In this document: positions 4,911 to 20,026 of the stretch, in pieces
Position numbering within the stretch: the stretch's first letter is position 1
Layout of the letters: each line of letters opens with the position of its first letter
Origin: a virus
Strand: one strand, 5' to 3'
DNA: 20,318 nucleotides
UHGV virus genome: UHGV-0140021
Notes under the pieces: generated by a model
Database searches by the model: none
Told to the model about the DNA's origin: nothing
Seen by the model: only the letters and a program-made list of their open reading frames with translations
Program-made: the position numbers and the translations under genes

Positions 4911-4919
4911 AAGCGACAC

Positions 4920-5387: not shown

Positions 5388-5452
5388 ATTCACTCCCCAA
5401 AAAAACGCATAGCATTATCGCAGGCACTCAGTGAATGCCTGCTGTAATGCCG

Positions 5453-5650: not shown

Positions 5651-5679
5651 ACTCATACCTCTGTTGTTAAAAAGCCCCG

Positions 5680-6834: not shown

Positions 6835-6843
6835 GGGGATCCC

Positions 6844-7179: not shown

Positions 7180-7363
7180 GGTCTCTCACCTCCGATAGTT
7201 CGGATGGCGCTGTGTGATGAAAGGAGGATCAGGCTTCACGGGCTGGATTTATCAACAATGCGTATCGAGGATGATTCCCGTGATCCTGAATCAGAACGGG
7301 CTCTGCGCAAGCGCCTGTCGGATTGGGTTATGAGCCGTCCGTCAGTGAGCCCTGAATATGAAA

Positions 7364-7385
7364 AAGGCCACCAGAAGGCAGCCTT
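7364..7385 (-). terminator. Weak hairpin-plus-U-run downstream of the 80-aa moron ORF
   Basis: AAGGC / GCCTT stem (5 bp) with 12-nt loop followed by TTT on the minus strand; weak. Confidence 0.25.
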
Positions 7386-7420
7386 AATAAATGTGGTGTA
7401 CCTATTTATTAATCAGATAG

Positions 7421-7663
7421 TTAAGACTCAAGATCAATTAAATAGCTATTCCCTTTAGACGTAATTCTATTCACTATCCAGCTGTCGTCACAATCAGACG
7501 TACTCTGCACAGCATTTACCAGACCCAACTCAGCGAGATCAGAAATAGCAAAATTCACCGCTTCCGCTGGAATGTGAGGAAGATCAGAAGATTGAATTGT
7601 TTCACGTGGTCCAAGAGCGCTTGCGCGACTCAGAGTTTCGATATGAACAGATGTTAATTTCAT
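7421..7663 (-). CDS. Hypothetical protein (80 aa), moron between the Q terminator and holin; possible small winged-helix protein
   Basis: ORF with AAGGCGG SD, bracketed by a candidate extended -10 promoter (TGTTACAAT, plus 7699-7707) and a downstream hairpin; lower GC than flanking genes. Confidence 0.5.
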   Translation of the reverse strand: MKLTSVHIETLSRASALGPRETIQSSDLPHIPAEAVNFAISDLAELGLVNAVQSTSDCDDSWIVNRITSKGNSYLIDLES

Positions 7664-7741
7664 TATGCCGCCTTTGTGTTGTCGTTTTGCTTGCGGCTAT
7701 TGTAACACATTGATTTTTACGTAGATTGAATGGCCTAGTGC

Positions 7742-7768
7742 AAAAAAAACCCGCTCGGTGGCGGGTTT
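7742..7768 (-). terminator. Rho-independent terminator downstream of the Q-like gene (tR'-like)
   Basis: Minus-strand read: ACCCGC-caccga-GCGGGT followed by eight T. GC-rich 5-6 bp stem, 6-nt loop, long U-run. Confidence 0.75.
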
Positions 7769-7778
7769 CTTAACTCTG

Positions 7779-7833
7779 AACATACAATGCCCATCGTTAA
7801 TGTCAAATATACACAAAAACGGCAACATTGCAA
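7779..7833 (-). promoter_or_regulatory. Candidate late promoter (pR'-like) between Q and the terminator
   Basis: Minus strand carries TTGCAA-16nt-TATATT and an overlapping TTGACA-16nt-TATGTT; either would initiate a short transcript ending at the terminator, as in lambda pR'-tR'. Exact -35/-10 assignment uncertain. Confidence 0.4.
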
Positions 7834-7849
7834 ACATCATGACGCTAAA

Positions 7850-8680
7850 TTACGCGATATTTATCACATCTTCACTTTTAGTCACCCGATTCAGTTGAGA
7901 GCTTGAATAACTCTCCTCCTGGAAACATTTGGTCACCAGGCTTTCATAGAATGGTTTCCAGCTATAACGCCACGTTCGGTCAGGCAGACTCGGCAACTCA
8001 GAAAAAACACCTCGATAGGCAACCGATGATTTTGGCCTGCTGTATCCCCGACCTTCACAGCGCTTACATTCTTTGTAAACCGGTACGCCCTGCAGTTCTG
8101 TCGCTTTACGGTCAATAGTCTTACCTGTGCCGCCGCACTGGCATCGCTTACTTAACTTTCCTGTGCCATGGCAGCGGGAACATAACGTATGATCAGTGTC
8201 AGTTACATCGCGCTTAACCTCAAAGTCAGATGGTGACTGTCTCAGGTCTTTTGCCCATTGTGGCAATCGCATTGTGTAATGACTTTTAGTCACGGTTTTA
8301 GTAGTTGTAAGCAACCCTTTACCACTACATTTTGGGCATGCCACGCTATCAGCGGCTGATGAGGAATAATCGTTATAGGCAAACCGGGCAAGAATACGCA
8401 TGCAGAGGGGAAACTTTTTCCCTGACGCTTTACGAATGGCCATGGGCGCATGCTCTTTCGCGTACTCCGTTAGCCAAGCTATTGACGCCTCCCTGTCCTG
8501 GCTGCTGATACCAGCTTTGCCCAGAAACATTGCCAGGCCTATCCCCGCATCGGCCTGAGTCATCCCCAGTGCAGCCATTACATCAGTAACCGTCAGTTGT
8601 TCACTGGCTGTCGCTCTGCTGGTATCTGATATGTGCATACCTTTCGGCGCAAAAAATTTCAGTACATTATCCAGGTTCAT
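7850..8680 (-). CDS. Antitermination protein Q-like
   Basis: 276-aa protein with several CxxC zinc-binding pairs (CPKC, CSRC, CQC, CKRC); last gene before the late promoter/terminator and lysis cassette; N-terminus resembles enterobacterial prophage Q proteins (from memory, not searched). Confidence 0.65.
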   Translation of the reverse strand: MNLDNVLKFFAPKGMHISDTSRATASEQLTVTDVMAALGMTQADAGIGLAMFLGKAGISSQDREASIAWLTEYAKEHAPMAIRKASGKKFPLCMRILARFAYNDYSSSAADSVACPKCSGKGLLTTTKTVTKSHYTMRLPQWAKDLRQSPSDFEVKRDVTDTDHTLCSRCHGTGKLSKRCQCGGTGKTIDRKATELQGVPVYKECKRCEGRGYSRPKSSVAYRGVFSELPSLPDRTWRYSWKPFYESLVTKCFQEESYSSSQLNRVTKSEDVINIA

Positions 8681-8695
8681 ACGGTCTCCATACGT

Positions 8696-9724
8696 TTAAG
8701 CTTTCGCAATTACGCCGATCGCCAGCGCCCGATCCATAAAACGCAGTAGCAGCTCAAGCTGCGTACCATGCTTCTGCTCGAATGCTGGTACATCGGCGTG
8801 TAACTCGTCGTGGCACTCTCTGCACAGAGGGATCACGAAGAGGTCATGGGCTTTTGTTGCTGTACCACCCATACCGTGCCCTACGATATGGTGCGGATCA
8901 TCTGCTGGCCGTCGGCAACACTCACAGGGTTGTGTTTTAACCCAGCGGGTGTACGTCTCATTTACCCAGCGGCGTCGCTTTGGCCTGAGCATGAAAGACT
9001 CTGGCGACTCCGGATCAACAGAGAGCGTTAGGATCTTCTTCGCCTTCTCCTGCACGAGGCTGGTTGCAGACGCGGAAGGCACAATGTCGCTTTCCCTCAT
9101 GACCGAGCGGATCTTCTCATCCGGAAGGCGTAGCCCCTTGTGCGCAACGCTTTCCGGAATAACATCAGCCAGGTCGTTTCTAACCATCCACCAGCACAGT
9201 TCCGGAAGCGTCAGGATATGCGACTCGGGAAAACCAGAATCACGCCGAATGACTTCCAGAATCCAGGATACCAGGTTTCCGGCCGCTATACCTGCAAGCT
9301 GTTCGGTATGCTGCCCCGACAAAGTGTGATCGCAATGCCAGCACAGGCGAATGCTTCCTGGTGGGTGCCGCATTGTTGTGAAGTTCTTGTCGTGCCACGT
9401 TGAATGTGGCCACTGGCATACAAACCGATTACTCAACCATTGCTCAAGGGAAGAAATCCCACCGGCACGCTGAATAACCCTCTCATTCTCGAAGACCTGA
9501 CGCATTACCGGATCATCAGCCAGCGGCTGAATGGCTGCCGGAACAGCCCCGGTACTGAATGACGCCATTTCTTCTGGTTCAGGCTCGAGCAGAACGCGAC
9601 CACGCATGAAGAGGTGCATCAGTTCCGCACCGGGACGGAACAGCACAATCCCCATACGATGGGCGATCTCGGGGGTAAGCAGAGCTCTCACGCGACCTGC
9701 CCCCTGGCAATGTGTTCTGCCCAC
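8696..9724 (-). CDS. DUF968-family protein (YdfU-like) with C-terminal HNH-type zinc-finger motif
   Basis: 342-aa ORF with GTG start; C-terminus CECCRRPADDPHHIVGHG...LCRECHDELH is HNH-like. Start overlaps the antirepressor 3' end, so the true start may be further downstream. Confidence 0.55.
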   Translation of the reverse strand: MGRTHCQGAGRVRALLTPEIAHRMGIVLFRPGAELMHLFMRGRVLLEPEPEEMASFSTGAVPAAIQPLADDPVMRQVFENERVIQRAGGISSLEQWLSNRFVCQWPHSTWHDKNFTTMRHPPGSIRLCWHCDHTLSGQHTEQLAGIAAGNLVSWILEVIRRDSGFPESHILTLPELCWWMVRNDLADVIPESVAHKGLRLPDEKIRSVMRESDIVPSASATSLVQEKAKKILTLSVDPESPESFMLRPKRRRWVNETYTRWVKTQPCECCRRPADDPHHIVGHGMGGTATKAHDLFVIPLCRECHDELHADVPAFEQKHGTQLELLLRFMDRALAIGVIAKA

Positions 9725-10371
9725 AGTCCACCAATCCAGCGCACGCCTTTCGCCGTGAAACGTGCCTGGCTGAATGCATGATTTGAGGTTACGGATGTGC
9801 CGGTTTTCACTTCAAAACGGCCCGCATCAATATGCTGATGCCGTGGGGTCATCGTTCCGCCAAGGCGATACATGATGTCGTTCTCAAGGAGGAATAACCG
9901 CAGATCTGGCTCTTTGGCCTTAAGCAGTTTTGCCACCTGGCGGAATGACATTGACCCACTGGCTGTACAGTACCGATCAACAAACGCTACCTTCGGCGCC
10001 GCGGCAGCCAGTTCGTTAGTCAACTGCTGTTTTTGTTCTGCAAGGTCAGCTGCAAGACGTAGGGCTTCAGAGAATGATTGAGGAATCGTCTGCTGCTGTG
10101 CCTGCTCAAGCTCCTGCCAGCGATCAACCAGACGCGCGGTAAACTCCGGCGACAGCTGCGCGACAACGATATAACTGTCCCGCTTCCCTATCAGATAAAC
10201 CGATACCGACTGATTGAGGTGATTTTTAACTTCCCCCATTGGGGGGAGTTCAATAACACCGCGCTCTGCCAGGCGTTCAATGGACCGTTTAACATGGTCA
10301 TGTCGTGATTCCACCAGCTCAGCAATATCGCTGCTGGACATGGTTAATGCTGTTGTTGCTAATTGGCTCAT
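9688..10371 (-). CDS. Phage antirepressor (Rha-like N-terminal domain, KilAC/ANT C-terminal domain)
   Basis: N-terminus ...SSDIAELVESRHDHVKRSIERL resembles Rha-family regulators; C-terminus ...AFVDRYCTASGSMSFRQVAKLL resembles the ANT/KilAC domain. Start chosen at ATG 10371 (MSQLATT) with GGAGA SD. Confidence 0.65.
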   Translation of the reverse strand: MSQLATTALTMSSSDIAELVESRHDHVKRSIERLAERGVIELPPMGEVKNHLNQSVSVYLIGKRDSYIVVAQLSPEFTARLVDRWQELEQAQQQTIPQSFSEALRLAADLAEQKQQLTNELAAAAPKVAFVDRYCTASGSMSFRQVAKLLKAKEPDLRLFLLENDIMYRLGGTMTPRHQHIDAGRFEVKTGTSVTSNHAFSQARFTAKGVRWIGGLWAEHIARGQVA

Positions 10372-10384
10372 ACTTTTCTCCATA

Positions 10385-10771
10385 TCAGGCGGCTGCACCC
10401 GCCGGTTCATATCTGCTGATCGTTATCTCTACCCGACCTTTCGGCACTACGGGTCCCCATTCCACCAGCATGCGCTTAATCTGGCTGTCGTCTTCCCAGA
10501 CACCCGCATGCGTCAGCGCGTCAAACAGGGCTTTGTTGTAATTATCGATATCCCGGCGGCGCGCATCCGGCGGGTACAGAGTGATTTCTACCGCTGCCAG
10601 TTCAGTCGATGGCTTCGGGAGACGTCGTAATTGCTCAATGATCGCCACGCAGGCAGCGCTCTGGTATTTACGAGCATCAGCGCTAATGAGGTGACGACCG
10701 GCCAGCGGCCCCTTATTAGGGGCGCGCCAGTACGTGTTCACGCTCGGAGGGAACGGGAGCACAAGTTTCAT
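10385..10771 (-). CDS. rusA: Crossover junction endodeoxyribonuclease RusA (Holliday junction resolvase)
   Basis: MKLVLPFPPSVNTYW... with DARRRDIDN and LFDALTHAGVWEDD motifs closely matching E. coli RusA; ATG overlaps the C5-MTase stop (ATGA); GGAGG SD. Confidence 0.9.
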   Translation of the reverse strand: MKLVLPFPPSVNTYWRAPNKGPLAGRHLISADARKYQSAACVAIIEQLRRLPKPSTELAAVEITLYPPDARRRDIDNYNKALFDALTHAGVWEDDSQIKRMLVEWGPVVPKGRVEITISRYEPAGAAA

Positions 10772-12702
10772 GCCACCTCCTGCTGTTGCACTGCACACAG
10801 TTCCGGAAGATTTGCCTCCACCAGCGCCCTGGCGAATGGTGGTGGTACCGCATTACCGCAGCGGGCTACCTGCTTATCTTTTGCATAGCGATTTCCACGG
10901 TAGTCCTGATCAATAACGTAACCATCCGGGAAGCCCTGCGCTTTGTAGAGTTCATGCGGCTGCAACATGCGCATTCCGATATCAACGATCTGGTATTTAA
11001 CCCCATCGATCGTTACCAGCCATTCATCGTCACTTTCCCCGCAATACGTCTCGAGAAATGTGCGTACCTCACCCACGTGTTGGCCACCAGCAGTGATTGT
11101 TGGCATTGGCACATCAAGGCGTTGCCCGTCGCGGCATGTTCCACGCAGTTTCACCAGATGAGAGGCAACTACCGCATGATGGTCGACAGTGGTCACTGAA
11201 TGCGCGGGTTCATCCATACTGACACCAGGCCCCGTATAGTTACCGCCGTAGTGTTTCGCCAGGAACGCGCTCACCGTCGCAAATTTATTTCCGCCTGCAG
11301 TAACGGTCCCCAGCGGGTTATCCAGTCGCAGCACACGCGGTTCTTGCCCAGGTCGTTCGCCATAACCCATCTGAATCAGCGTAGGCGTTACCGGTTGAGA
11401 TTTACCGCCACCACCAGCGGTGATGGTTGCGCTCGGTTCGTCTGCACGGTGGCCGACGCTGGCCCCAAACTGGCGGGCTATCACTGGCGCAACCAGACAG
11501 GCTCGGGATTGCTTCAGAATGGTATGAGCAGGTTTATCCAGCGGGCGCGGTTTCGCCTGGTATTCACTACCACCATTACCCGCCAGGAATGGCGTCAGTG
11601 CAGCCTCAACAATCCCGAGTGCATGCCCGTTCCCGCCCGGGCGTTTTGACGTGCCAGCGGTTACCGTCGGAACAGGTTCGGTAAGGGGCTGCCCGGTTGC
11701 GCCAGTGCGGAATTTTGTCAGGTGTGGAACGGCTAACGCGTAGCCGAGTTTTTTAGTAATGGTCTGTAATGGCTCATTCAGTGACTGTCCGCGAAAAGCG
11801 TCATACGCATTTTTTGAGCTCGTGTGGTTGCACTTCACAATAAACGGCGACGCACTTTCGATAACAAAGCGCTGTATGCCGCGCGCGATCCGCTTCAGAG
11901 TGTTCTCCGCCAGCGGTTTTTTGCGGTCGAAGATGGACAGGGCCGGAATATTCCAGTCGATACATTCCGCAGCGGTACGCCATGGCATCAGCCTGCCACT
12001 TTGCACCTCCAGAGACTTAGGATCCCCATGGGTAATAGCAGGCCACTGGATTGGGCAACCATCGCAACGCATAACCATGAAGAAGCGTTTGCGGATCGTC
12101 GGCGCGCCGTAATCACACGCACGTAGTTCGCGATAATCAACATCATATCCCAGCCCATCCACCAGCTTTTGTGCCTGCTCGCTACCTCTTTCGATAGACA
12201 GAAACTCACAAACCTCAGCCAGTGCCGGGTGATCAGCAGGAATGCCAGTGGACAGCATGCCGACAAATGCATTGAATGTTTCGCCAGTGCGGGCAGGATC
12301 CGGACGCATTTCATCGGCCAGCAGCGGTCCCCACGTTTTGAACTCTTCCACGTTCTCCAGCATCATCACGCGCGGTCGCTTTGCCAGTGCCCAACGCAGA
12401 ACAATCCAGGCCAGACCGCGTATCTCTTTTTTCACAGGCTTTGCGCCTTTTGCCTTCGAGAAGTGTCGGCAGTCCGGGCTAAACCATGCCAGTCCGACAG
12501 GATGACCTCCGGTGGCGGCTACCGGATCCACGTCAAATACGGATTCACAATAATGCAGTGTGTCCGGGTGGTTCGTCTTGTGCATCGCAATGGCGTTTTC
12601 GTCGTGGTTTATCGCAATATCCACGCTGCGCCCGATCGCCAGTTCAATACCCGTTGATGCGCCACCGCCACCAGCAAAGTTATCAACGATAATCTCACGC
12701 AT
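10768..12702 (-). CDS. DNA (cytosine-5)-methyltransferase, unusually long (644 aa) with a repeated TRD-like region
   Basis: C5-MTase motifs: I DNFAGGGG, IV SPDCRHFS (catalytic PC), VI ENV, VIII TIRKRFF, IX ELYKAQGFPDGY, X CGNAVPPP. A ~330-aa variable region holds six repeats of [DN]-x-P-x-x-T-[IV]-T(-A-G-G). Confidence 0.9.
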   Translation of the reverse strand: MREIIVDNFAGGGGASTGIELAIGRSVDIAINHDENAIAMHKTNHPDTLHYCESVFDVDPVAATGGHPVGLAWFSPDCRHFSKAKGAKPVKKEIRGLAWIVLRWALAKRPRVMMLENVEEFKTWGPLLADEMRPDPARTGETFNAFVGMLSTGIPADHPALAEVCEFLSIERGSEQAQKLVDGLGYDVDYRELRACDYGAPTIRKRFFMVMRCDGCPIQWPAITHGDPKSLEVQSGRLMPWRTAAECIDWNIPALSIFDRKKPLAENTLKRIARGIQRFVIESASPFIVKCNHTSSKNAYDAFRGQSLNEPLQTITKKLGYALAVPHLTKFRTGATGQPLTEPVPTVTAGTSKRPGGNGHALGIVEAALTPFLAGNGGSEYQAKPRPLDKPAHTILKQSRACLVAPVIARQFGASVGHRADEPSATITAGGGGKSQPVTPTLIQMGYGERPGQEPRVLRLDNPLGTVTAGGNKFATVSAFLAKHYGGNYTGPGVSMDEPAHSVTTVDHHAVVASHLVKLRGTCRDGQRLDVPMPTITAGGQHVGEVRTFLETYCGESDDEWLVTIDGVKYQIVDIGMRMLQPHELYKAQGFPDGYVIDQDYRGNRYAKDKQVARCGNAVPPPFARALVEANLPELCAVQQQEVA

Positions 12703-13576
12703 GGGTTACCCCCTGCATGCTGCCAACAAGACCACGCGCAATTGTAATAATTTCGCTGGTGGCCGTTCGTTCCAGCCAGAGTTGATTGATGTTGGCTTTC
12801 AGCTTGTTCTGCTGAGCCTCACTCAATACGTCAACGCCTTCCACCTGGTTAAACACCAGACCAACCTCTAGAGGCCAGATACGTGACTCAGTTTCCGATG
12901 GTATTACTGGTTCCTGGGCTGTCCGCACTGCAATTGTTTGCTCTTTACCAACAGCGAATTGAGCCAGCGCCATAAATTCCCGACCTTTTGCCTCCAGTTC
13001 TGTGCGGTTGATATAGCTGAACCGCTCACCACGCCACGACTTATCGAATACAGCTATGGCACCGGCAAAAAACGCGCTGGTGGGTTTCTGTTTTTCGTCA
13101 GCAGGTACAAACCACACAGGCAGATCGAACCCAATGCGCCCGCGAATGAATACAATGTGATCGGCATCTTCCGGCCACCACGTTTCACTCGGCGCGGCTT
13201 TTATCAGGAATACATAGCGACCGCCCTTCTCGCGCTGGGCTGCTGCGTATTTCATGATGTGCGTCATACCAGTGATCGCCTGTTTCTCGTGGTACTGCGA
13301 ACGGCTATACGGTGGGTTGCCATAGCCAGCGCCACCCAGTTCTGCCAGACGTTCAGACCAGTCCTGCGTCAGCGCGTTATCTTCGGCGGTGTACCATGCC
13401 GGGCATTTCGCGTTGTCGGCGTCAGCAAACAAGTCCAGAACTAATGGACCAAATAGCGCGTTGATCCCCCAAAAAAGCAGATCCGGTGTTCGCCACTGAT
13501 CGCCAACTTCTTTCAATTCGTGGGCTGGTTGGCTACGTAGTTCCGCCAGCGACTGGCAATATTTGTTTAACGTCAT
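12695..13576 (-). CDS. Phage N6-adenine DNA methyltransferase (Dam-like family) with ~110-aa C-terminal extension
   Basis: QWRTP...DLFADADNAKCPAWYT...GNPPYS motifs typical of phage Dam-family N6-adenine MTases; start overlaps the upstream ORF stop and its stop overlaps the C5-MTase start. Confidence 0.8.
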   Translation of the reverse strand: MTLNKYCQSLAELRSQPAHELKEVGDQWRTPDLLFWGINALFGPLVLDLFADADNAKCPAWYTAEDNALTQDWSERLAELGGAGYGNPPYSRSQYHEKQAITGMTHIMKYAAAQREKGGRYVFLIKAAPSETWWPEDADHIVFIRGRIGFDLPVWFVPADEKQKPTSAFFAGAIAVFDKSWRGERFSYINRTELEAKGREFMALAQFAVGKEQTIAVRTAQEPVIPSETESRIWPLEVGLVFNQVEGVDVLSEAQQNKLKANINQLWLERTATSEIITIARGLVGSMQGVTHA

Positions 13577-13935
13577 CCTCTGAACCCCTCTGGAATCGTT
13601 GTATCAACCGGACCAAAAGCCATCACATCGCGCTTTTTCGCACCCCAGTCAGCGCGTTTAGGCCGTCCCTTCTGCTCCCAGCGGGTAGCGCTTTGCAGAT
13701 AGCTCTCGAATTTCTTCGGGCCGAACAGCGTTTCCGGGCGCATGTACTGGTACTGCTCGTCGTTCTCGTGCCAGTGCTCATGCTTCAGGTCGATAACCAG
13801 TTGCAGGTCTGCAACGCTGTATCCCTCACGCAGTCGGGCACGGATGTTCTCCAGGGATGTTTTTGATTTCTGATACCGGGATCCGCTGATCTTGTTCAAA
13901 TGGGTCAGAACCAAAATTGCCTGATCAGTAATCAC
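13573..13935 (-). CDS. C-terminal portion of an O-like replication protein (conserved phage C-terminus, RPETLF...KFE.YL motif); possibly a fragment of a disrupted gene
   Basis: 120-aa ORF from a GTG with no recognisable SD; its frame is open upstream to 14016 and so almost abuts the stop of the O-like N-terminal ORF (14007). Confidence 0.5.
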   Translation of the reverse strand: MITDQAILVLTHLNKISGSRYQKSKTSLENIRARLREGYSVADLQLVIDLKHEHWHENDEQYQYMRPETLFGPKKFESYLQSATRWEQKGRPKRADWGAKKRDVMAFGPVDTTIPEGFRG

Positions 13936-14006
13936 GACTTCAGGGTCTGGTTGCGCCGCAACCGGACAAGAGGGTTTTGAAGTTACTTGTGGATCTTGTT
14001 TTGATT

Positions 14007-14408
14007 TTACTGACGGTCAAAACCGCCGTTTTTGACGGATTTCGACGGGTCAGTTTTTGAGGCGTCAAATTTTGATGCGTCAGATTTTGACGTGTCAGAA
14101 TCTGACAGTTGAGAAAATGCGGCAGCCTGAAGTTTCGCCACATTCAGGCGGTACACGTTCGAAGCATTACGGTTACCATTACGGCGCTGTGTACGCGTGA
14201 GCCAGCCATCTTTTTCAAGCTTAGCGATTGCCGTTCTGATAGTGCTCGGCCCTGCGCCAAGCTGGCGAGCAATAGTTTCAATGGACGGCCAGCACACGCC
14301 CTCATCGCTGCTGAAATCAGCGAGGCGGGCCATGATCGCGACACTAGACAACTTCATGCCCGACGCCGCGCAACCATCCCATACGTAGCCGGTTAATTTA
14401 GTGCTCAT
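14007..14408 (-). CDS. Replication initiator O-like protein, N-terminal HTH DNA-binding part; 3' end encodes the ori iterons
   Basis: N-terminus MSTKLTGYVWDG...CWPSIETIARQLGAGPSTIRTAIAKLEKDGWL is a typical replication-initiator winged-helix; C-terminal repetitive peptide (SDSDTSKSDASKFDASKTDPSK) is coded by the 15-bp iterons; SD GGGAGA upstream. Confidence 0.65.
   Translation of the reverse strand: MSTKLTGYVWDGCAASGMKLSSVAIMARLADFSSDEGVCWPSIETIARQLGAGPSTIRTAIAKLEKDGWLTRTQRRNGNRNASNVYRLNVAKLQAAAFSQLSDSDTSKSDASKFDASKTDPSKSVKNGGFDRQ
14025..14114. repeat. Replication origin iterons (about five 15-bp direct repeats, TTTTGAnGCGTCAnn) embedded in the O-like gene, with an adjacent AT-rich stretch (13975-14010)
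   Basis: TTTTGA-type hexamers recur at 14030, 14040, 14055, 14070, 14085 and 14100 (15-bp period for the last five); each unit carries TGAnnnnTCA inverted symmetry. Same layout as ori-lambda inside gene O. Confidence 0.65.
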
Positions 14409-14417
14409 GATCGTCCG

Positions 14418-14744
14418 TTATCTCCCTGAACTTTTGCCTGAAATGCTCAAGTGGGCTGAAGCATTCGTGCGGGTAGCCATCACGCAGATAGATAACGCGC
14501 TGTGTTTCTGGCTCCCAGCGGATAACACGGACTGGCACTCCACGGTGATCTTTGAACCTTCGGTTAAGTTCGCGCACAGGCGTTTCGCCCTCCGGTTGTA
14601 GACCCCCACAATTGAAACCGCCCTACTGTGGTTACACGGAACCAAGCGGTTTGATAATCTGCGTTCATACCGAAACAACGGAGTACCCGAAACCGGGATC
14701 ATCCTGAGTTGCGGTAGACGGTTAAAAGCCGTTAAACTGCTCAT
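14418..14744 (-). CDS. Hypothetical basic protein (108 aa); uncertain gene
   Basis: ATG 6 nt after the CII-like stop with GGAG SD; its stop lies 9 nt before the O-like ATG. Weakened by many rare codons (AGG, AGA, CGG, CTA) and a competing plus-strand ORF (14401..14601). Confidence 0.25.
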   Translation of the reverse strand: MSSLTAFNRLPQLRMIPVSGTPLFRYERRLSNRLVPCNHSRAVSIVGVYNRRAKRLCANLTEGSKITVECQSVLSAGSQKHSALSICVMATRTNASAHLSISGKSSGR

Positions 14745-14749
14745 GCGGA

Positions 14750-15301
14750 TTATTTCTCCATACTCGAAGAGTTGTTCGCCAAGGCGCCCGGAGCTGCACA
14801 CTCGCGGGCGTCACTCTTTTCAGCGACACAAAAAACTCGATAAAGAAGCGCTACGTGCTCCTGGAACTTCGCAATAACCTGATAGCTGTTTTCCTCAATC
14901 TGAGCGCGCTCATCTGCGTCAATCACCCCATCAGCCGTGGCTTTACGTACAAAATTAGAATGACGGCCTATCCATTCGATGGACTCCATCAGGCGCTGGT
15001 TGATATCGGCGTTATCCAGATCATCAACATCTGCCAGCGGTACAAATACGCCCTGAGAATGGCGCGCAACGGCATCAGCGATATGAGTTGAACCACCAGC
15101 ACGTTGTAAAACCATTGCCCAGCCCAGCGGGAAGATCTGATCGCCGTCAACACGAAGGCGGTTAAACAATGCGTTCTCTGTCACGCCCAACCATTCCGCC
15201 GCCTCGGCATAACCACCAGGTAGATCGGTGATCGTTTTTTTTATCGCCGCCACCAGCCAGGCTGGCTGACGTTCGACTTTCCAAATAGGTTCGTTACCCA
15301 C
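14750..15301 (-). CDS. CII-like / YdaT-like transcriptional regulator (HTH)
   Basis: Position immediately downstream of cro; HTH-like segment DLPGGYAEAAEWLGVTENALFNRLR. Start trimmed to GTG 15301 (AAGGGG SD) because the longer ORF overlaps cro; start remains uncertain. Confidence 0.45.
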   Translation of the reverse strand: MGNEPIWKVERQPAWLVAAIKKTITDLPGGYAEAAEWLGVTENALFNRLRVDGDQIFPLGWAMVLQRAGGSTHIADAVARHSQGVFVPLADVDDLDNADINQRLMESIEWIGRHSNFVRKATADGVIDADERAQIEENSYQVIAKFQEHVALLYRVFCVAEKSDARECAAPGALANNSSSMEK

Positions 15302-15344
15302 GGTTAACCCCTTAATTCTGTGGTTATAAAAATCAGCTCGTCTG

Positions 15345-15545
15345 CTACTGTTTAGGGTAAATGTCAGGACGAAGATCAGATTTGCTGATAATCCCAGCAG
15401 TTGTTTCCTCCAGCTTTTTAGCCAAGGAAAAACCTGCCTTTTTGTAGCCATTGAAAACTAAACGCAGGTAGCCAGGCGTGGAACCTACGCTTCCAGCTAA
15501 TTCGCCTTGCTGCTCTTTAGTTAAAGAGTCCCAATACTCTTTCAT
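15345..15545 (-). CDS. Cro-like repressor (66 aa)
   Basis: Small ORF divergent from cI, ATG at 15545 with AGGAGG SD, start overlapped by a 17-bp operator. Assignment is mainly positional. Confidence 0.6.
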   Translation of the reverse strand: MKEYWDSLTKEQQGELAGSVGSTPGYLRLVFNGYKKAGFSLAKKLEETTAGIISKSDLRPDIYPKQ

Positions 15546-15633
15546 AATATGTACCTCCTGTGTACATATTACACGAAAGAAATGAACCCACAAGGTACTT
15601 GTACCATAGAGGTACACATTGTTTAATTTGCTG
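15546..15633. promoter_or_regulatory. Immunity control region (oR-like): divergent promoters and 17-bp operators TGTACC-N5-(G/T)GTACA
   Basis: Operators at 15550-15566 (TGTACCTCCTGTGTACA) and 15600-15616 (TGTACCATAGAGGTACA), extra GTAC half-site at 15595. Candidate -10 TAATAT for cro on the minus strand and TTTAAT (15622-15627) just upstream of the cI ATG. Confidence 0.6.
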
Positions 15634-16308
15634 ATGAAAACTATCCAGGAAATCAGGCGATTAAACGCCCGAAAATTGAGAGATGGTGTTGGGGGTAATA
15701 GCTACTTCGCTAACATGATCGATCGTGAACCTACACAAACCAGCCGGTTTATGGGTGAAGGTGCCACCAAAGGTATTGGTGACGCTATGGCAAGGCATAT
15801 CGAAAAATGTTTTGACTTGCCTCAAGGTTGGCTAGATACCGAACATCAAACTACCAACATTGCTAAATCACCCGACGTTTCAGACGTTAAAAGATCAATT
15901 ACGATGGTCCCGGTTATATCCTGGGTGCAAGCCGGAGCATGGACGGATGCTGGTTATGCAGAGGTAGATTTGAGTAGTGTAGAAACATATCCTTGTCCCG
16001 TTCCGTGCGGGCCAATGACTTATATCTTACGCGTCATTGGTGATTCAATGATCGATGAGTATCGTCCTGGCGATATGATTTTTGTAGATCCAGAGGTTGC
16101 AGCTTCTCATGGCGATGATGTTATTGCTTTAATGCATGATTCTGGCGAAACGACGTTTAAACGATTAATAGAAGATAGTGGCGAAAAGTTTCTTAAAGCT
16201 TTAAACGCCAACTGGCCAGAGCCATATATTAGGATCAATGGTAATTGCTCGATTATTGGCACCGTTGTTTTCTCAGGAAAACCACGACGGCACAGGCATA
16301 AGCCTTAA
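15634..16308 (+). CDS. cI-type prophage repressor with LexA-like S24 peptidase domain
   Basis: C-terminal domain has the GDSM serine motif and downstream lysine (TFKRL); divergent from cro across the operator region. ATG 15634 chosen (ORF track starts at TTG 15619); no SD, consistent with a leaderless or short-leader transcript. Confidence 0.85.
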   Translation: MKTIQEIRRLNARKLRDGVGGNSYFANMIDREPTQTSRFMGEGATKGIGDAMARHIEKCFDLPQGWLDTEHQTTNIAKSPDVSDVKRSITMVPVISWVQAGAWTDAGYAEVDLSSVETYPCPVPCGPMTYILRVIGDSMIDEYRPGDMIFVDPEVAASHGDDVIALMHDSGETTFKRLIEDSGEKFLKALNANWPEPYIRINGNCSIIGTVVFSGKPRRHRHKP

Positions 16309-16317
16309 CCCATCATC

Positions 16318-16345
16318 ACAAACCTGCTTCGGCAGGTTTTTTTAT
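16318..16345 (+). terminator. Rho-independent terminator of cI
   Basis: AAACCTGC-TTCG-GCAGGTTT followed by TTTTTTT, immediately after the cI stop. Confidence 0.85.
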
Positions 16346-16347
16346 CC

Positions 16348-16380
16348 TTGACAATGTACCCTCAAGGTACATAATGTACC
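16348..16380 (+). promoter_or_regulatory. pL-like early promoter with overlapping operators (oL)
   Basis: TTGACA (16348-16353), 16-nt spacer, CATAAT (16370-16375). Operator TGTACCCTCAAGGTACA (16355-16371) sits between -35 and -10, plus overlapping GGTACATAATGTACC (16366-16380); same half-site as the oR sites. Confidence 0.65.
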
Positions 16381-16661
16381 TATACGAAACAGCGAACAGG
16401 CAGGACGCCCACGAAGTAGCCGCCGGTGACGTATGAATAACCGGATGATTCGCTGACAGGTGTCTTCGGGAGGGGTTACGGGCTGGAGTGACTACCAGCG
16501 TCGACAGCTCTATCCGACGAAACGGAACCGTCTAACCCGCGGTTGTCGGTGAAAAGTACCGTAGGGATGCCAGCTAGTCACTGGCCCCCGCCCGAAGATA
16601 CCTACCACCGCGCCTGATGTGGTTAAAAGCAGGCTAAAGCAATAACAAGTAACTCCATGTT

Positions 16662-16712
16662 CTGGCGGACCGGTGTTTTCCCGTGTATTTCCGGTAACCG
16701 CCAGCCTTTTTC
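16662..16712 (+). terminator. Intrinsic terminator inside the early-left leader
   Basis: CTGGCGGACCGG (16662-16673) pairs with CCGGTAACCGCCAG (16691-16704): 12 bp with a 2-nt bulge and 17-nt loop, followed by CCTTTTTC. Confidence 0.6.
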
Positions 16713-16842
16713 AGATCACAACATGAAAGCGCACTCCTTCACTTACCAGTTATGGGTGACAGGTGTGAAACAAGCGGAGTGCGCTTCCAGTTGAGTATGG
16801 AGAAAGTTCGGCGGTGGCAGCCGCCTTAACGAGGGTAAAACC

Positions 16843-17214
16843 ATGAGTAATGACCGCATGACCGTAGTGCCAGATTTTCTTGGCGAACTGGATGCCGGCG
16901 TGTTCATGAACAAAATCGCGGCAGCACTTAACACCACCGCGCTTGGCGTTCTGAACAACGGCAACAAAGGCAAAGTAGTCCTCACCTTTGATTTTGAGCG
17001 CATGGGTAATTCCGTTGAAGAGAAGCGCGTCAAGATCAAGCACAAGCTGAACTACAGCACCCCAACACCGCGTGGTAAAGCCTCCGAAGAGGACACAACC
17101 GAAACCCCGATGTGGGTCAACAAAGGCGGGAAGCTCACCATCCTGCAGGAAGATCAGGGTCAGCTGTTCGGGATCACTGGCGCGGTGGATGGAAAGCTTA
17201 AAGCGGCTCAGTGA
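16843..17214 (+). CDS. Hypothetical early protein (123 aa), first gene of the early-left operon; possibly YfdP-like
   Basis: ORF with GAGGG SD 9 nt upstream; first gene after the leader; size and context similar to CPS-53 yfdP (recall only). Confidence 0.55.
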   Translation: MSNDRMTVVPDFLGELDAGVFMNKIAAALNTTALGVLNNGNKGKVVLTFDFERMGNSVEEKRVKIKHKLNYSTPTPRGKASEEDTTETPMWVNKGGKLTILQEDQGQLFGITGAVDGKLKAAQ

Positions 17215-17270
17215 TCCGCAACAACAAACTCACTGATACCACTTTGATCATCAGTTAATAAGGAATTTTT

Positions 17271-18098
17271 ATGTCTCAGTTAGACAGCGGTACCTTCAAG
17301 CAGGTCAAAGACCTGGTTCTTTCCGGTTATCACCTGAATGATATTCATGGCCTGGCTTGCCCGACCGCATTACTGCCAGAGGGTACTGGCGTTGAAAGCC
17401 TCGAGCGCTTTTCTCTGGAACGTTTCCGCTTTCGTGGCGAAATGACCACAACCAGTATTGACGACTTCGCACGTTATTCTAAAGGTTACGCCAGCGACAG
17501 TGAACCAGCTCGTTGCTTCATTGACGCTGACAACATGACCGCCCGTTCAGTGTTCAACATCGGCACCCTGGATAATCCTGGTCACGCCGATAACGTTGCT
17601 TCAATCACCCTGAAGAAAACCGCCCCGTTCCGCGCGTTACTGCAGATCGATGGTCAACGTCTGAAACAAAAGCAAATTGCTGAATGGCTGGAAGACTGGA
17701 GCGATTACCTGCTGGCGTTTGATGCTGATGGCAATACGATGCAGATTTCCCAGGCGGCTCAGGCTGTGCGTCGTATCACTATTCAGCAAGCAACACAGCA
17801 GGACCATGAAACTGGTGATTTCGCTGGTAAAAAATCGCTGATGCAAAGCGTTGAAGCAAGCAGCAAAGACGTAATGCCTGTGGCGTTCGAGTTCAAATGT
17901 ATGCCGTATGAAGGCCTGGGCGAACGCCGCTTTAGCTTGCGTAACAGCCTGCTGACTAGCGATGAACCCTGCTTTGTTCTGCGCATTGTCCAACTTGAAG
18001 CTCAGGAAGAAGCGATCGCCAACGAATTCCGCGATTTGCTGATCAGCAAGTTCGAAGGCGAATCAGTGGAAACTTTCATCGGTAACTTTAAAGCCTAA
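17271..18098 (+). CDS. YfdQ-like protein (DUF2303 family), 275 aa
   Basis: AAGGAA SD; length nearly identical to E. coli CPS-53 YfdQ (274 aa) and followed by an HD-domain gene as in the yfdQ-yfdR arrangement. Homology inferred from size and context, not searched. Confidence 0.55.
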   Translation: MSQLDSGTFKQVKDLVLSGYHLNDIHGLACPTALLPEGTGVESLERFSLERFRFRGEMTTTSIDDFARYSKGYASDSEPARCFIDADNMTARSVFNIGTLDNPGHADNVASITLKKTAPFRALLQIDGQRLKQKQIAEWLEDWSDYLLAFDADGNTMQISQAAQAVRRITIQQATQQDHETGDFAGKKSLMQSVEASSKDVMPVAFEFKCMPYEGLGERRFSLRNSLLTSDEPCFVLRIVQLEAQEEAIANEFRDLLISKFEGESVETFIGNFKA

Positions 18099-18110
18099 TT
18101 GCTCTGCATT

Positions 18111-18137
18111 AAATCCCCGGCGCCGCGGGGATTTATT
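18111..18137 (+). terminator. Hairpin with partial U-run after the YfdQ-like gene (possible terminator or attenuator)
   Basis: AAATCCCCG-gcgc-CGGGGATTT followed by ATT; GC-rich stem. Confidence 0.4.
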
Positions 18138-18226
18138 GAAGCGTAATTCCATTAATTATCGCCAACCGGCGAGGGATTCGTGCAACCAAAATCTGCGCGG
18201 TGCAGCGCGCCAATATGGAGAAAGAC

Positions 18227-18766
18227 ATGAGCTACATTCAGACATTTTCCGGTAAAAAATTTAACTACCTGACCGCCACAATCGACGATATCGATGTTGA
18301 GGATATCGCGACTGCTCTTTCCAACATCTGTCGATTCGCTGGGCATCTCCCAGAGTTCTACAGTGTGGCCCAGCACTCTGTGCTTGTAAGCCAGATTGTG
18401 CCGCCAGAGTTCGCCTTTGAAGCGCTAATGCACGACGCTGCGGAGGCATATTGCCAGGATATTCCGGCCCCGCTCAAAGCCTTGCTGCCTGACTACCAGC
18501 GCATGGAAACTTATATTGATGGTCTTATCCGCTTTAAATTCGGTATCCAGCTTGAGCAAGCTGCCGTCGTGAAATATGCCGATCTAACCATGTTAGCTAC
18601 CGAGCGCCGTGATCTGGAAATCGATGACGGTTCGAAGTGGGAAATTCTCGAAGGTATTCCCTGCTCTGATCTCGTTCAGGTTATTCCTCTCCGTCCTGGT
18701 CAAGCCTATGGCCTGTTCATGAATCGCTTTAACGAACTGGTGGAGCTGCGCCAATGCGCCGCATGA
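18227..18766 (+). CDS. HD-domain phosphohydrolase, YfdR-like (5'-deoxynucleotidase family)
   Basis: 178 aa from ATG 18227 (GGAGAAAGAC SD); conserved H...HD residues (AQHS, LMHDAAE) typical of HD-domain nucleotidases; same length as E. coli YfdR. Confidence 0.7.
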   Translation: MSYIQTFSGKKFNYLTATIDDIDVEDIATALSNICRFAGHLPEFYSVAQHSVLVSQIVPPEFAFEALMHDAAEAYCQDIPAPLKALLPDYQRMETYIDGLIRFKFGIQLEQAAVVKYADLTMLATERRDLEIDDGSKWEILEGIPCSDLVQVIPLRPGQAYGLFMNRFNELVELRQCAA

Positions 18767-18929
18767 AGGTAAAAGAACTCGTAGCGGAGGCTTTTGCCTC
18801 CGTTACTGAATTGCCACCAAAGCATGCACCGCTTATGCGCGAAGTCGCCACCAGACTGGAAGCTACGTTCGCAGCATTAAAAGAGTCTCTGGTGCAACTG
18901 GAACAGGAACGTAAAGGTAAAACGCCATG
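18753..18929 (+). CDS. Small hypothetical protein (~58 aa)
   Basis: Hand-translated ORF MRRMKVKELVAEAF...; overlaps the YfdR-like 3' end and its stop overlaps the next ATG (ATGA). Below the ORF-track size cutoff. Confidence 0.35.
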
Positions 18930-19181
18930 ACCGTATTTGAATATCTCCAGGCTCATCCGAATACCACCAGCGGTGAAATCGCCAAAGGTATGAACAAAAA
19001 GACACCCGCGGTCGCTGGCGCATTATCGCAACTCTATGGCACCGGCCGGATCGTGAAGTCTGGTGTTCGCAAGGGCATACCAACATACCGTGTTAACGAT
19101 ATGCCGTTTGGGTGCAGTAACAGCTTAACCATGATGTTTAACCAGCTATTGAATAGCGCCAGACAGGGAGCAGCCCAATGA
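18927..19181 (+). CDS. Hypothetical protein (84 aa)
   Basis: ORF in operon context with overlapping start and stop; no recognisable motifs. Confidence 0.5.
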   Translation: MTVFEYLQAHPNTTSGEIAKGMNKKTPAVAGALSQLYGTGRIVKSGVRKGIPTYRVNDMPFGCSNSLTMMFNQLLNSARQGAAQ

Positions 19182-19564
19182 AAGCACTCAACAAACAGGC
19201 ATACCGAGCTGATGGCGGTGATATTGGAGCAGGGCGTCTCAAAGAGATAGCCGACAACGCATATGGCGATGAAGAAAAGCGCTGGCTGGCGCAACGAGTG
19301 CTGGCGCTGCTGGATGAGAATCTCCAACTACAGCGCGACAAAGATTCGCTTGAAGCAGTTGCGATTGCTATGCGTGACGATATGCGGGAGGCGCGTGAAA
19401 AGCTGGAAGCCGCAGAGAAGCGCGTAGCAGACCACCGTAAGGTGCTAAACAGCCTTGCAGCTGTAGCCCGTCGCTATCTTCCTGATTATGACGAACATCC
19501 TGAAATTCAGGCCGCTGACGAATTACTTGAGAGCGCCGCTGGCATTGGCGTGAAGGGGGAGTGA
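19178..19564 (+). CDS. Hypothetical coiled-coil protein (128 aa), possibly YfdS-like
   Basis: Charged helical sequence; start overlaps the upstream stop. Size close to CPS-53 YfdS (120 aa); not verified. Confidence 0.5.
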   Translation: MKALNKQAYRADGGDIGAGRLKEIADNAYGDEEKRWLAQRVLALLDENLQLQRDKDSLEAVAIAMRDDMREAREKLEAAEKRVADHRKVLNSLAAVARRYLPDYDEHPEIQAADELLESAAGIGVKGE

Positions 19565-20026
19565 ATGCAGATTTCACCAATCACCTTAAAAGTTGCCAAA
19601 GAATTTGTGGCGAAACATCACCGTCACAACAAACCGCCAACAGGACATAAATTTAGTATCGGTCTGAAAAATTCTGATGGTGAATTGATTGGCGTAGCTA
19701 CCGCAGGAAGACCAATAGCCAGGAATTTCGATGATGGCCTTACTCTGGAGGTTAACCGTACTTGCACAACTGGAGAGCGCAACGCTAACAGCGCTCTTTA
19801 TGGAGCAATCTGGCGGGCAGCAAAGGCTATGGGTTATCAGCGCTGCATAACCTACACCCAAGCGGATGAATCCGGGGCATCGCTGCGCGCGGCTGGTTTT
19901 GTCCGGGTTAAGGAACTTCCCGCGAGAAAAGGGTGGGCAGCATCAAGCGTTGCACTGAAAGATAAGCGAGACCCGGTAGGAAATGGTGGTGTTACACGCG
20001 TTCTTTGGGAAATAAGGAGAAGGTAA
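19565..20026 (+). CDS. Hypothetical protein (153 aa)
   Basis: ORF starting immediately after the upstream stop (GGGGGAGTGA ATG); no confidently recognised domain. Confidence 0.5.
   Translation: MQISPITLKVAKEFVAKHHRHNKPPTGHKFSIGLKNSDGELIGVATAGRPIARNFDDGLTLEVNRTCTTGERNANSALYGAIWRAAKAMGYQRCITYTQADESGASLRAAGFVRVKELPARKGWAASSVALKDKRDPVGNGGVTRVLWEIRRR

What the first reader, a model, noticed from the sequence alone, without database searches (positions are those of the whole stretch)
13573..14408. O-like replication initiator is split into two ORFs in different frames exactly at its embedded origin
The N-terminal HTH ORF (14408-14007) ends with TAA at the edge of the AT-rich ori segment, and the ORF carrying the conserved phage C-terminal domain (13935-13573) is in another frame that is open upstream to 14016. 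The C-terminal ORF starts at a GTG with no SD. This is what a one- or two-nucleotide indel within 14010-14016 would produce in an ancestral single ~275-aa O-like gene. No slippery X-XXY-YYZ heptamer is present, so programmed frameshifting is unlikely. No P/DnaC/DnaB-like helicase loader follows the initiator. Either the prophage is replication-defective (cryptic), there is an assembly error, or the initiator is genuinely two-piece. E. coli CPS-53 is annotated with O-protein fragments (yfdN/yfdO), from memory.
Basis: partly seen in the sequence, partly recalled or inferred. Interest (0 to 1): 0.6.

Follow-up and report, generated by a model that had tools for sequence, protein, structure and literature searches.

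The report
Phage replication initiator broken by deletion
A phage's DNA-replication starter gene is split in two here because 22 bases are missing from the replication origin inside it; this is a one-off loss-of-function lesion (or a low-coverage sequencing artefact), not a new kind of two-part protein.

Summary
On the minus strand, a 133-aa HTH_36 ORF (14408-14007) and a 120-aa Phg_2220_C ORF (13935-13573, frame open from 14016) lie in different frames at an iteron-bearing, AT-rich linker.

The cause is not a 1-2 nt indel. It is a 22-bp deletion (CCCGTCAGAATCTGGCGGGGAT) at window 14017/14016. Over 16.7 kb it is the only indel against an intact Citrobacter prophage (CP024679.1) and a second metagenome contig. 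From 4789 to 20318 there are zero and one substitutions respectively.

The intact form is a single 285-aa protein. It occurs in hundreds of Citrobacter, Salmonella and E. coli variants and in isolated phages (LLS, phiNP, F1055). The deleted segment is a conserved quasi-palindromic, inverted iteron-like element plus one GATC, so both the protein and the presumed origin are damaged.

The junction occurs only in two ENA assemblies. These are probably from one sample, at about 5x coverage, and a library or assembly artefact cannot be excluded. No slippery site or ribosome-binding site supports recoding or a functional split. The missing helicase loader is normal for this module, including in functional phages.

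Verdict: an ordinary pseudogenising lesion of low interest.

The parts
14398..14577 (-). DUF4222 small ORF (59 aa). Its stop overlaps the initiator start by 11 nt. It is the conserved upstream partner of this initiator type.
   Evidence: Pfam DUF4222 E=4e-17. The same gene is annotated upstream of the intact initiator in E. coli and Citrobacter relatives.
14007..14408 (-). 5' fragment of the initiator gene. It comprises residues 1-131 of the 285-aa protein (winged-helix HTH_36 origin-binding domain plus the iteron-encoded linker), then two out-of-frame residues (RQ) and TAA.
   Evidence: HTH_36 E=3.3e-12. The DNA is identical to L013 10001-10392.
14031..14105 (-). Five tandem 15-bp iteron-like repeats (consensus TCAAAATCTGACGCn), the presumed initiator-binding sites of the embedded origin. 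This is an inference by analogy with lambda ori.
   Evidence: TRF period 15, 4.1 copies, score 75. The repeat finder family D1 with spacing 15,15,15,15. Mapped from L013 10304-10378 with window = 24409 - x.
14014..14017 (-). Deletion junction. Here 22 bp (CCCGTCAGAATCTGGCGGGGAT in the gene's sense strand) are missing relative to all intact relatives. Placement is ambiguous by 2 nt (CC microhomology). The lost segment is an inverted, quasi-palindromic iteron copy plus one GATC.
   Evidence: Alignments. It is the single gap in 16.7 kb. The 8-bp-stem hairpin has a free energy of -6.7 kcal/mol, z -2.1.
13974..14016 (-). AT-rich part of the linker. In the intact gene it holds two 22-nt GATCC...AAAAC repeats. 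The first has lost its GAT to the deletion.
   Evidence: the repeat finder family D2. GC 0.35 at 13980-14019.
13573..13935 (-). 3' fragment of the initiator gene, a GTG-started ORF of 120 aa whose frame is open from 14016. It encodes the complete Phg_2220_C domain, now out of frame with the 5' fragment and lacking a Shine-Dalgarno sequence.
   Evidence: Phg_2220_C E=4.5e-24. Translation. Identical to L013 10415-10858. AlphaFold model of the domain has pLDDT 93.9.
12695..13576 (-). Phage Dam (N6-adenine) methyltransferase gene. It overlaps the initiator stop (ATGA) and takes the position where lambda has P.
   Evidence: Pfam Dam E=9.5e-44. The order is the same in intact relatives and in phages LLS and phiNP.

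Best explanation
**What the locus is.** It is the replication-initiator gene of a lambdoid Citrobacter-type temperate phage.
- In its normal state the gene encodes one 285-aa protein.
- That protein has an N-terminal winged-helix (HTH_36) domain, a low-complexity linker and a C-terminal Phg_2220_C domain.
- The DNA encoding the linker carries the presumed origin: five direct 15-bp iterons, one inverted quasi-palindromic iteron and an AT-rich stretch containing GATC sites.

**What happened.** In this sample 22 bp have been lost at window 14017/14016. They comprise the inverted iteron hairpin plus GAT.
- The most likely mechanism is replication slippage across the hairpin.
- The loss shifts the frame by -1.
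- The result is a 133-aa DNA-binding fragment ending in RQ-stop, and an untranslated or poorly translated C-terminal frame.

**Expected consequence.** This is a very recent loss-of-function lesion in an otherwise intact phage.
- The phage should be unable to fire its origin.
- It is damaged in trans, because the C-domain is no longer tethered to the DNA-binding domain.
- It is probably also damaged in cis, because a conserved origin element is lost.

**Shown.** The deletion, its uniqueness, the intact single-ORF state of relatives and the absence of recoding signals.

**Inferred.** The origin function of the repeats, the hairpin mechanism, the replication defect, and that the deletion exists in the biological DNA rather than only in the library.

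**Confidence.** The figure of 0.62 is for the full statement, including that the deletion is real. That the split derives from a 22-bp loss in a single-gene initiator, and is neither a designed two-piece arrangement nor a recoded one, I hold at about 0.93.
For: **The lesion.**
- three intact E. coli homologues (285-293 aa, single CDS) carry the 22 bp that the window lacks.
- window 3573-20318 aligns to L009 and to Citrobacter CP024679.1 (L013) at 99.7% with exactly one gap, the 22 bp.
- from 4789 to 20318 there are 0 mismatches to L009 and 1 to L013.
- the intact translation equals the N ORF(1-131) + PSESGGD + the C frame.

**The intact state is the norm.**
- the best 120 hits of each search are all 285 aa (one is 287). 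They come from Citrobacter, Salmonella and E. coli, and one variant is on at least 1000 contigs.
- isolated phages F1055, LLS, phiNP and YeP1-3 have a single ORF.

**The split state is rare.**
- the junction 22-mer is absent from GTDB representative genomes, IMG/VR and JGI metagenomes.
- the exact split products occur on only 2 contigs.

**The lost element matters.**
- the deleted segment and its flanks are the best-conserved part of the linker in phages LLS and phiNP and in the Nissle prophage.
- iteron anatomy.
- the deleted segment folds into an 8-bp-stem hairpin.

**No recoding signals.**
- the overlap window is only 3 codons, with no slippery heptamer and no Shine-Dalgarno sequence before the GTG.
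Against: **The deletion may not be biological.**
- The deletion rests on two ENA assemblies: NODE_254, cov 5.05, and scaffold_207.
- These share a contig end or N-gap at the same nucleotide, so they probably derive from one thin read set.
- I could not inspect the reads.

**The slippage mechanism fits imperfectly.**
- A single 22-bp event has only 2 bp of microhomology.
- The obvious 7-bp direct repeats (CCGTCAG) are 21 bp apart.
- Simple slippage between them would have given an in-frame deletion.

**Function is untested.**
- Origin function of the repeats has not been tested for this family.
- The replication defect has not been tested either.
Confidence: 0.62

Rival explanations
1. The 22-bp gap is an artefact of library preparation or of low-coverage assembly. 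One route is polymerase jumping across the quasi-palindromic hairpin during library PCR. Another is a gap-closing join in a thinly covered repeat region. On this reading the phage in the sample actually has the intact 285-aa gene.
For: - The window is a contig of k-mer coverage about 5 (record name NODE_254_length_20318_cov_5.048561).
- The only other contig with the junction has a 10-N scaffold gap exactly where the window ends. That points to the same sparse reads.
- The deleted segment is a hairpin inside a repeat array.
- Many isolate assemblies break inside this gene, giving 'partial' products of 124-143 aa.
- Apart from the gap, the sequence is identical to an intact relative over 15.5 kb.
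Against: - De Bruijn assemblers need the junction k-mers to be present in reads. No repeat of 21 nt or longer spans the site.
- A join through the 10-nt imperfect overlap GA(C/T)CCGTCAG would delete 21 bp, not 22 (read).
- Deletions of 22 bp are not a typical Illumina error.
- Two assemblies with different contig naming, differing by 2 SNPs, agree on the junction.
Confidence: 0.3
2. The initiator genuinely works as two polypeptides. The 133-aa origin-binding fragment and a separately translated Phg_2220_C protein would assemble at the origin in trans.
For: - About 10 of the 150 best 50%-identity representatives of the C-domain are Met-started proteins of 114-150 aa that look stand-alone.
- The C-domain is a shuffled module found behind many different N-terminal domains.
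- The GTG ORF would contain the whole domain.
Against: - The arrangement is private to one sample.
- It arose by a deletion that also removes a conserved non-coding-type element.
- There is no Shine-Dalgarno sequence, and the start is a GTG 72 nt after the upstream stop.
- Every close relative, and every isolated phage examined, has one ORF.
- From my own knowledge of lambda O, not tested here, the isolated N-terminal domain binds the origin but does not support replication.
Confidence: 0.04
3. A programmed -1 ribosomal frameshift, or another recoding event, restores a full-length initiator from the two frames.
For: The second frame is -1 relative to the first, and the two frames overlap by a few codons.
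Against: - The only permissible window is GAC CGT CAG, between TGA 14019-14017 and TAA 14009-14007.
- That window has no X_XXY_YYZ or other slippery motif.
- The two-frame state is not conserved in any relative.
- Even a restored product would lack seven residues, and the DNA would still lack the origin element.
Confidence: 0.01

Closest known systems
Enterobacterial phage 'O family protein' / 'conserved phage C-terminal domain-containing protein' (HTH_36 + Phg_2220_C, TIGR02220). Examples: WP_096324181 of E. coli C3728, the 285-aa Citrobacter protein P0121, gp44 of Escherichia phage LLS, and Rep of Citrobacter phage phiNP.
   Same: - The DNA is identical to the Citrobacter CP024679.1 gene apart from the 22 bp.
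- The two domains are the same.
- The position after cro, cII-like and DUF4222 and before Dam is the same.
- The iteron array in the linker is the same.
   Different: The window copy is interrupted. It lacks 22 bp, is split into 133-aa and 120-aa ORFs in different frames, and has lost the inverted iteron and one GATC.
Bacteriophage lambda O protein with ori-lambda inside its gene
   Same: - The logic is the same. An N-terminal origin-binding winged helix and a C-terminal partner-binding domain are joined by a linker.
- The DNA encoding the linker holds iterons followed by an AT-rich stretch (lambda annotation).
- Brezellec et al. 2017 (PMC5509034) report by HHpred that lambda O is HTH_36-like plus Phg_2220_C-like.
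   Different: - There is no detectable sequence similarity by BLASTP.
- With hmmscan, lambda O hits Phage_rep_O only, and the Citrobacter protein hits HTH_36 and Phg_2220_C only.
- The iterons are 15 bp, against about 18-19 bp in lambda.
- No P-like helicase loader follows. A Dam methylase sits in that position.
E. coli K-12 CPS-53 (KpLE1) remnant yfdM-yfdN-yfdO-yfdP-yfdQ
   Same: - It belongs to the same phage lineage. YfdP and YfdQ (DUF2303) homologues lie in the window's leftward operon.
- YfdO is a leftover C-terminal half of a related initiator, 98% identical to residues 192-313 of the E. coli C4 protein.
- It is therefore a precedent for initiator fragments in defective prophages.
   Different: - YfdO has a different C-domain with no Pfam hit. 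Only the IPxGFRG tail is shared.
- It arose by a large deletion that removed the N-domain and the immunity region.
- YfdN is PerC-like, not an O fragment.
- CPS-53 is heavily decayed, whereas the window phage shows a single lesion.
DnaD/DnaB-type (DDBH2) and SPP1 G39P-type helical domains of Gram-positive replication organisers
   Same: - The AlphaFold model of the C-domain is a small helical bundle.
- The N-domain has a sub-threshold DnaD_N hit (23.8 bits against a cut-off of 27).
   Different: - The scores are marginal and equal to those for unrelated AAA+ lid domains.
- A sequence profile finds no solved relative.
- Membership is not established.

Membership tests
HTH_36 + Phg_2220_C phage replication initiators ('O family', TIGR02220 type) | N-terminal HTH_36 winged-helix domain | tested here: met
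   E=3.3e-12, 46.5 bits against a cut-off of 25, residues 23-70 of the 133-aa ORF.
HTH_36 + Phg_2220_C phage replication initiators ('O family', TIGR02220 type) | C-terminal Phg_2220_C domain | tested here: met
   E=4.5e-24, 84.8 bits against a cut-off of 27, with the full profile 1-73 matched in the 13573-14016 frame.
HTH_36 + Phg_2220_C phage replication initiators ('O family', TIGR02220 type) | Both domains on one polypeptide | tested here: not met
   In the window the domains are separated by TAA 14009-14007 and a -1 frame change. The feature is met in all close relatives. The window copy is therefore a disrupted member, a pseudogene.
HTH_36 + Phg_2220_C phage replication initiators ('O family', TIGR02220 type) | Position in the rightward early operon after cro and a cII-like gene, with repeats inside the gene | tested here: met
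   Peptidase_S24 repressor, cro-like ORF, Phage_CP76 (cII-like), DUF4222, then the initiator. Five 15-bp repeats lie in the gene.
Lambda O family (Pfam Phage_rep_O, PF04492) with P partner | Phage_rep_O N-terminal domain | tested here: not met
   Lambda O scores 5.7e-36. The intact Citrobacter protein P0121 shows no Phage_rep_O hit at E<=1. BLASTP of P0121 against lambda O finds nothing significant.
Lambda O family (Pfam Phage_rep_O, PF04492) with P partner | Adjacent P-type (or DnaC/DnaB-type) helicase loader | tested here: not met
   The next genes are Dam, a cytosine methylase, RusA, Ant, DUF968 and Q-like. The same holds in intact relatives and in phages LLS and phiNP.
Lambda O family (Pfam Phage_rep_O, PF04492) with P partner | Origin (iterons plus an AT-rich region) embedded in the initiator gene and bound by the initiator | tested here: inconclusive
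   The repeat anatomy and AT-rich stretch are present, and the element is conserved. Binding and origin activity cannot be tested with these tools.
Programmed -1 ribosomal frameshift genes | Slippery heptamer in the overlap, and conservation of the two-frame layout in relatives | tested here: not met
   The overlap is GAC CGT CAG only. Relatives have a single frame.
Decayed (cryptic) prophage | Several independent inactivating lesions or large deletions relative to intact relatives | tested here: not met
   There is one gap and 25-26 substitutions in 16.7 kb against the intact relatives L009 and L013 (CP024679.1). All 25 differences from L009 lie in 3889-4788; L013 adds one at 7750. Gene order and lengths are the same as in L009 and L013.
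Genuine mutation (as opposed to artefact) | Junction supported by multiple independent reads | not testable with these tools
   Only assemblies are available: two contigs, coverage about 5, with a shared contig end.
DnaD-like (DDBH2) domain | Significant structural or profile similarity of the C-domain to DnaD C-terminal domains | tested here: inconclusive

The most novel reading that the evidence does not exclude
The deletion is real and not simply a dead gene. On this reading, the stand-alone 133-aa origin-binding fragment has some function. It might work with a separately made C-domain as a split initiator. Or it might act as a dominant-negative origin blocker that keeps the prophage grounded and excludes related superinfecting phages with the same iterons.
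Probability: 0.04. Interest if true: 0.45.

Novelty: already known. Interest (0 to 1): 0.1.

Why it matters
It matters little beyond annotation. The two ORFs should be annotated as one disrupted initiator gene, and this phage copy should be regarded as probably replication-defective.

Two modest points may be of general use:
- **The origin element as a weak point.** The most conserved element of the presumed origin is a hairpin inside the coding linker. One slippage event there can destroy both the cis and the trans function.
- **No helicase loader.** This widespread initiator module (HTH_36 + Phg_2220_C, preceded by DUF4222 and followed by Dam) works in plaque-forming phages without any recognisable helicase loader. 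How those phages recruit DnaB is the more interesting open question, but it is not specific to this window.

Tried and rejected
- **Junction searches.** I searched for the exact deletion junction as a 35-mer and a 22-mer in GTDB representative genomes, IMG/VR and JGI metagenomes. None was found.
- **In-frame intermediate.** I tested whether the window differs by only 1 nt from a natural in-frame 21-bp-deleted allele. That junction was absent from IMG/VR and JGI metagenomes.
- **Lambda O membership.** There was no BLASTP or hmmscan link.
- **YfdO as a homologue of the window's C-ORF.** Rejected. Only the last 16 or so residues align.
- **Solved-structure relatives.** Single-sequence and profile searches gave only generic MarR-type HTH hits or noise.
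- **Assembly collapse on a repeat.** Rejected as a simple explanation. No repeat long enough spans the site, and the available 10-nt imperfect overlap would give a 21-bp loss, not 22 bp.
Full report
**1. What is in the sequence.**

On the minus strand an ATG ORF runs 14408-14007 (133 aa) and stops at TAA 14009-14007.
- It carries an HTH_36 winged-helix domain (E=3.3e-12).
- It has a sub-threshold DnaD_N hit.

A second ORF starts at GTG 13935 and ends at 13573 (120 aa).
- Its frame is the -1 frame of the first.
- It is open upstream to 14016, where TGA 14019-14017 closes it.
- It contains a complete Phg_2220_C domain (E=4.5e-24).

Between the two domains lie the repeats and an AT-rich stretch.
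- Five tandem 15-bp repeats (TCAAAATCTGACGCn) lie at 14105-14031.
- GC is 0.35 at 13980-14019.

**2. What caused the split.**

Megablast against complete E. coli genomes found homologues annotated as one CDS of 285-293 aa, 'conserved phage C-terminal domain-containing protein'. Aligned to three of them, the window lacks 22 bp exactly at the frame change.

The intact protein is very common.
- Two database searches each returned 120 best hits. All were 285 aa except one of 287 aa.
- They came from Citrobacter, Salmonella and E. coli, and one variant is on at least 1000 contigs.

I fetched the DNA of the closest protein (P0121).
- Window 3573-20318 aligns to a Citrobacter chromosome (CP024679.1, L013) and to an unrelated metagenome contig (L009).
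- Identity is 99.7% over 16.7 kb, with a single gap: the 22 bp CCCGTCAGAATCTGGCGGGGAT.
- From 4789 to 20318 there is no substitution against L009 and one against L013.
- All 25 differences from L009 lie in the terminase genes at 3889-4788; L013 adds the one at 7750.
- The intact translation equals the window's N-ORF residues 1-131, plus PSESGGD, plus the window's C frame.

So the lesion is a 22-bp deletion at 14017/14016, not a 1-2 nt indel.
- Its placement is ambiguous by the dinucleotide CC.
- The obvious 7-bp repeats (CCGTCAG) are 21 bp apart.
- I therefore asked whether a natural in-frame 21-bp-deleted allele exists, from which the window would differ by one C.
- Its junction is absent from IMG/VR and JGI metagenomes.
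- No 278-aa protein appears among the best hits.

**3. What was lost.**

In the intact gene the five direct iterons are followed by two elements.
- The first is an inverted copy, TTTTGACCCGTCAGAATCTG. It is 90% complementary to iteron 1.
- The second is a pair of 22-nt GATCC...AAAAC repeats.

The deleted 22 bp are most of that inverted copy plus the first GATC.
- As single-stranded DNA the segment folds into an 8-bp-stem hairpin (-6.7 kcal/mol, z -2.1).
- The stretch GGCGGTTTTsACCCGTCAGAATCTGGnGGGGATCCGTCAGTAAA is the best-conserved part of the linker.
- It is conserved in the isolated phages LLS (81% protein identity) and phiNP (65%) and in the Nissle 1917 prophage.
- That pattern suggests a cis-acting role, which is my inference.

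The deletion thus damages the protein and probably also the origin.

**4. How rare the split is, and whether it is real.**

The split state is very rare.
- The exact split products exist on only two contigs.
- The junction is absent from GTDB representative genomes, IMG/VR and JGI metagenomes.

The two contigs are probably not independent.
- The window is the whole contig ENA ERZ1754149 NODE_254_length_20318_cov_5.05.
- The other contig is ERZ28588632 GIBS16-1_SAMN04436967 scaffold_207. It differs at two positions.
- It has a 10-N scaffold gap exactly where the window ends.
- The two are therefore probably assemblies of one thin read set.

Simple assembler collapse is unlikely.
- No long repeat spans the site.
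- The available 10-nt imperfect overlap would give a 21-bp loss.

At about 5x coverage, however, a hairpin-jump artefact of library PCR cannot be excluded without the reads. I put about 0.6 on a real, very recent deletion and about 0.3 on an artefact.

**5. Rivals.**

- **Programmed -1 frameshifting.** The only permissible window is GAC CGT CAG, which has no slippery motif. No relative shares the two-frame layout.
- **A functional two-piece initiator, evidence against.**
  - There is no Shine-Dalgarno sequence before a GTG that lies 72 nt after the upstream stop.
  - The state is private to one sample.
  - A conserved DNA element has been lost.
  - Single ORFs are found in phages F1055, 118970_sal3, LLS, phiNP and YeP1-3.
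- **A functional two-piece initiator, caveat.** About 10 of the 150 best 50%-identity representatives of the C-domain are Met-started proteins of 114-150 aa. Stand-alone forms may therefore exist in distant lineages.

**6. The missing helicase loader.**

The gene after the initiator is Dam, followed by a cytosine methylase, RusA, Ant, DUF968 and a Q-like antiterminator.
- The same order, without any P, DnaC or DnaB homologue, is found in all intact relatives.
- It is also found in the plaque-forming phages LLS and phiNP.

It is a property of the module, not a sign of decay.

**7. Comparison with known families.**

- **Own family.** The gene is a disrupted member of the enterobacterial 'O family' initiators (HTH_36 + Phg_2220_C).
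- **Lambda O.**
  - It works like lambda O in layout: an origin inside the gene, between a DNA-binding domain and a partner-binding domain.
  - HHpred similarity of lambda O to both Pfam families is reported in PMC5509034.
  - It is not a member of the lambda O sequence family. There is no Phage_rep_O hit and no BLASTP similarity.
- **The C-domain as a module.**
  - Among 80 diverse full-length representatives it follows HTH_36 in 21 and DnaD_N in 5.
  - It follows DUF6291 in 3, and Phage_rep_org_N, Rep3 and Phage_rep_O in 1 each.
  - I assign no fold family.
- **K-12 CPS-53.**
  - YfdO is the C-terminal 122 aa of a related 313-aa initiator (98% identity), with a different C-domain.
  - YfdN is PerC-like and YfdM is a Dam fragment.

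**8. Verdict.**

This is a real feature with an ordinary explanation. A single 22-bp deletion, or an artefact mimicking one, lies in a well-known, widely distributed phage initiator gene. It is unique to one low-coverage metagenome sample. Interest is low.

Noticed in passing
window 20318 (contig end); L007 2775-2784: The only other contig carrying the deletion (scaffold_207) has a run of 10 N exactly where the window contig ends. Intact relatives have 38 bp there. The two assemblies therefore probably come from the same sparse reads (contig coverage about 5).
   Followed up: yes
L001 2434-3747 (Salmonella phage 118970_sal3) vs L002 2434-3408 and 3405-3878 (phage F1055): In 118970_sal3 the initiator CDS (437 aa) reads through the usual GFRG-stop into the next gene. 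In F1055 the same sequence is two genes (325 aa and 157 aa). This is another gene-boundary anomaly at this initiator, in the opposite direction (fusion).
   Followed up: partly
window 13573-13978 and 13925-14408: Mosaic joints flank the linker. The C-domain DNA is 91-92% identical to Salmonella phages whose N-domain is unrelated. The N-domain plus linker is shared with E. coli 1943 and Nissle prophages that carry a different C-domain subtype. The origin-containing linker acts as a recombination seam between modules.
   Followed up: partly
window 14398-14577 (minus strand): A DUF4222 ORF of 59 aa overlaps the initiator start by 11 nt. It is the conserved upstream neighbour of this initiator type in E. 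coli and Citrobacter prophages. Its function is unknown, and it was not called as a gene on several metagenome contigs.
   Followed up: partly
window 10768-13576 (minus strand); origin region 13974-14016: A Dam and a 644-aa cytosine methyltransferase sit directly after the initiator, where lambda has P. The AT-rich part of the presumed origin carries GATC sites, one of which is lost with the deletion. Functional relatives (LLS, phiNP) also lack any helicase loader, and how they recruit DnaB is unexplained.
   Followed up: partly
cluster members of the 133-aa and 120-aa products: Many isolate assemblies of Citrobacter and Salmonella end inside this gene, giving 'partial' products of 124-143 aa or C-terminal pieces. 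The locus is therefore a frequent contig break point. The likely cause is co-resident mosaic prophages.
   Followed up: no
window 3889-4788: All 25 substitutions relative to the otherwise identical contig L009 cluster in the small and large terminase genes. This is a sharply bounded mosaic patch.
   Followed up: no
L015 6113-7247 (E. coli K-12 CPS-53 yfdM-yfdN-yfdO): YfdO is 98% identical to the last 122 residues of a 313-aa initiator of E. coli strain C4. YfdN is PerC-like and YfdM is the first 91 residues of a Dam. K-12 thus keeps a truncated copy of the same replication module with a different C-domain.
   Followed up: yes
window 14750-15451 (minus strand): The cII-like (Phage_CP76) reading frame is 233 aa from its first ATG, but it is called as 183 aa on related contigs. 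The true start is unresolved.
   Followed up: no
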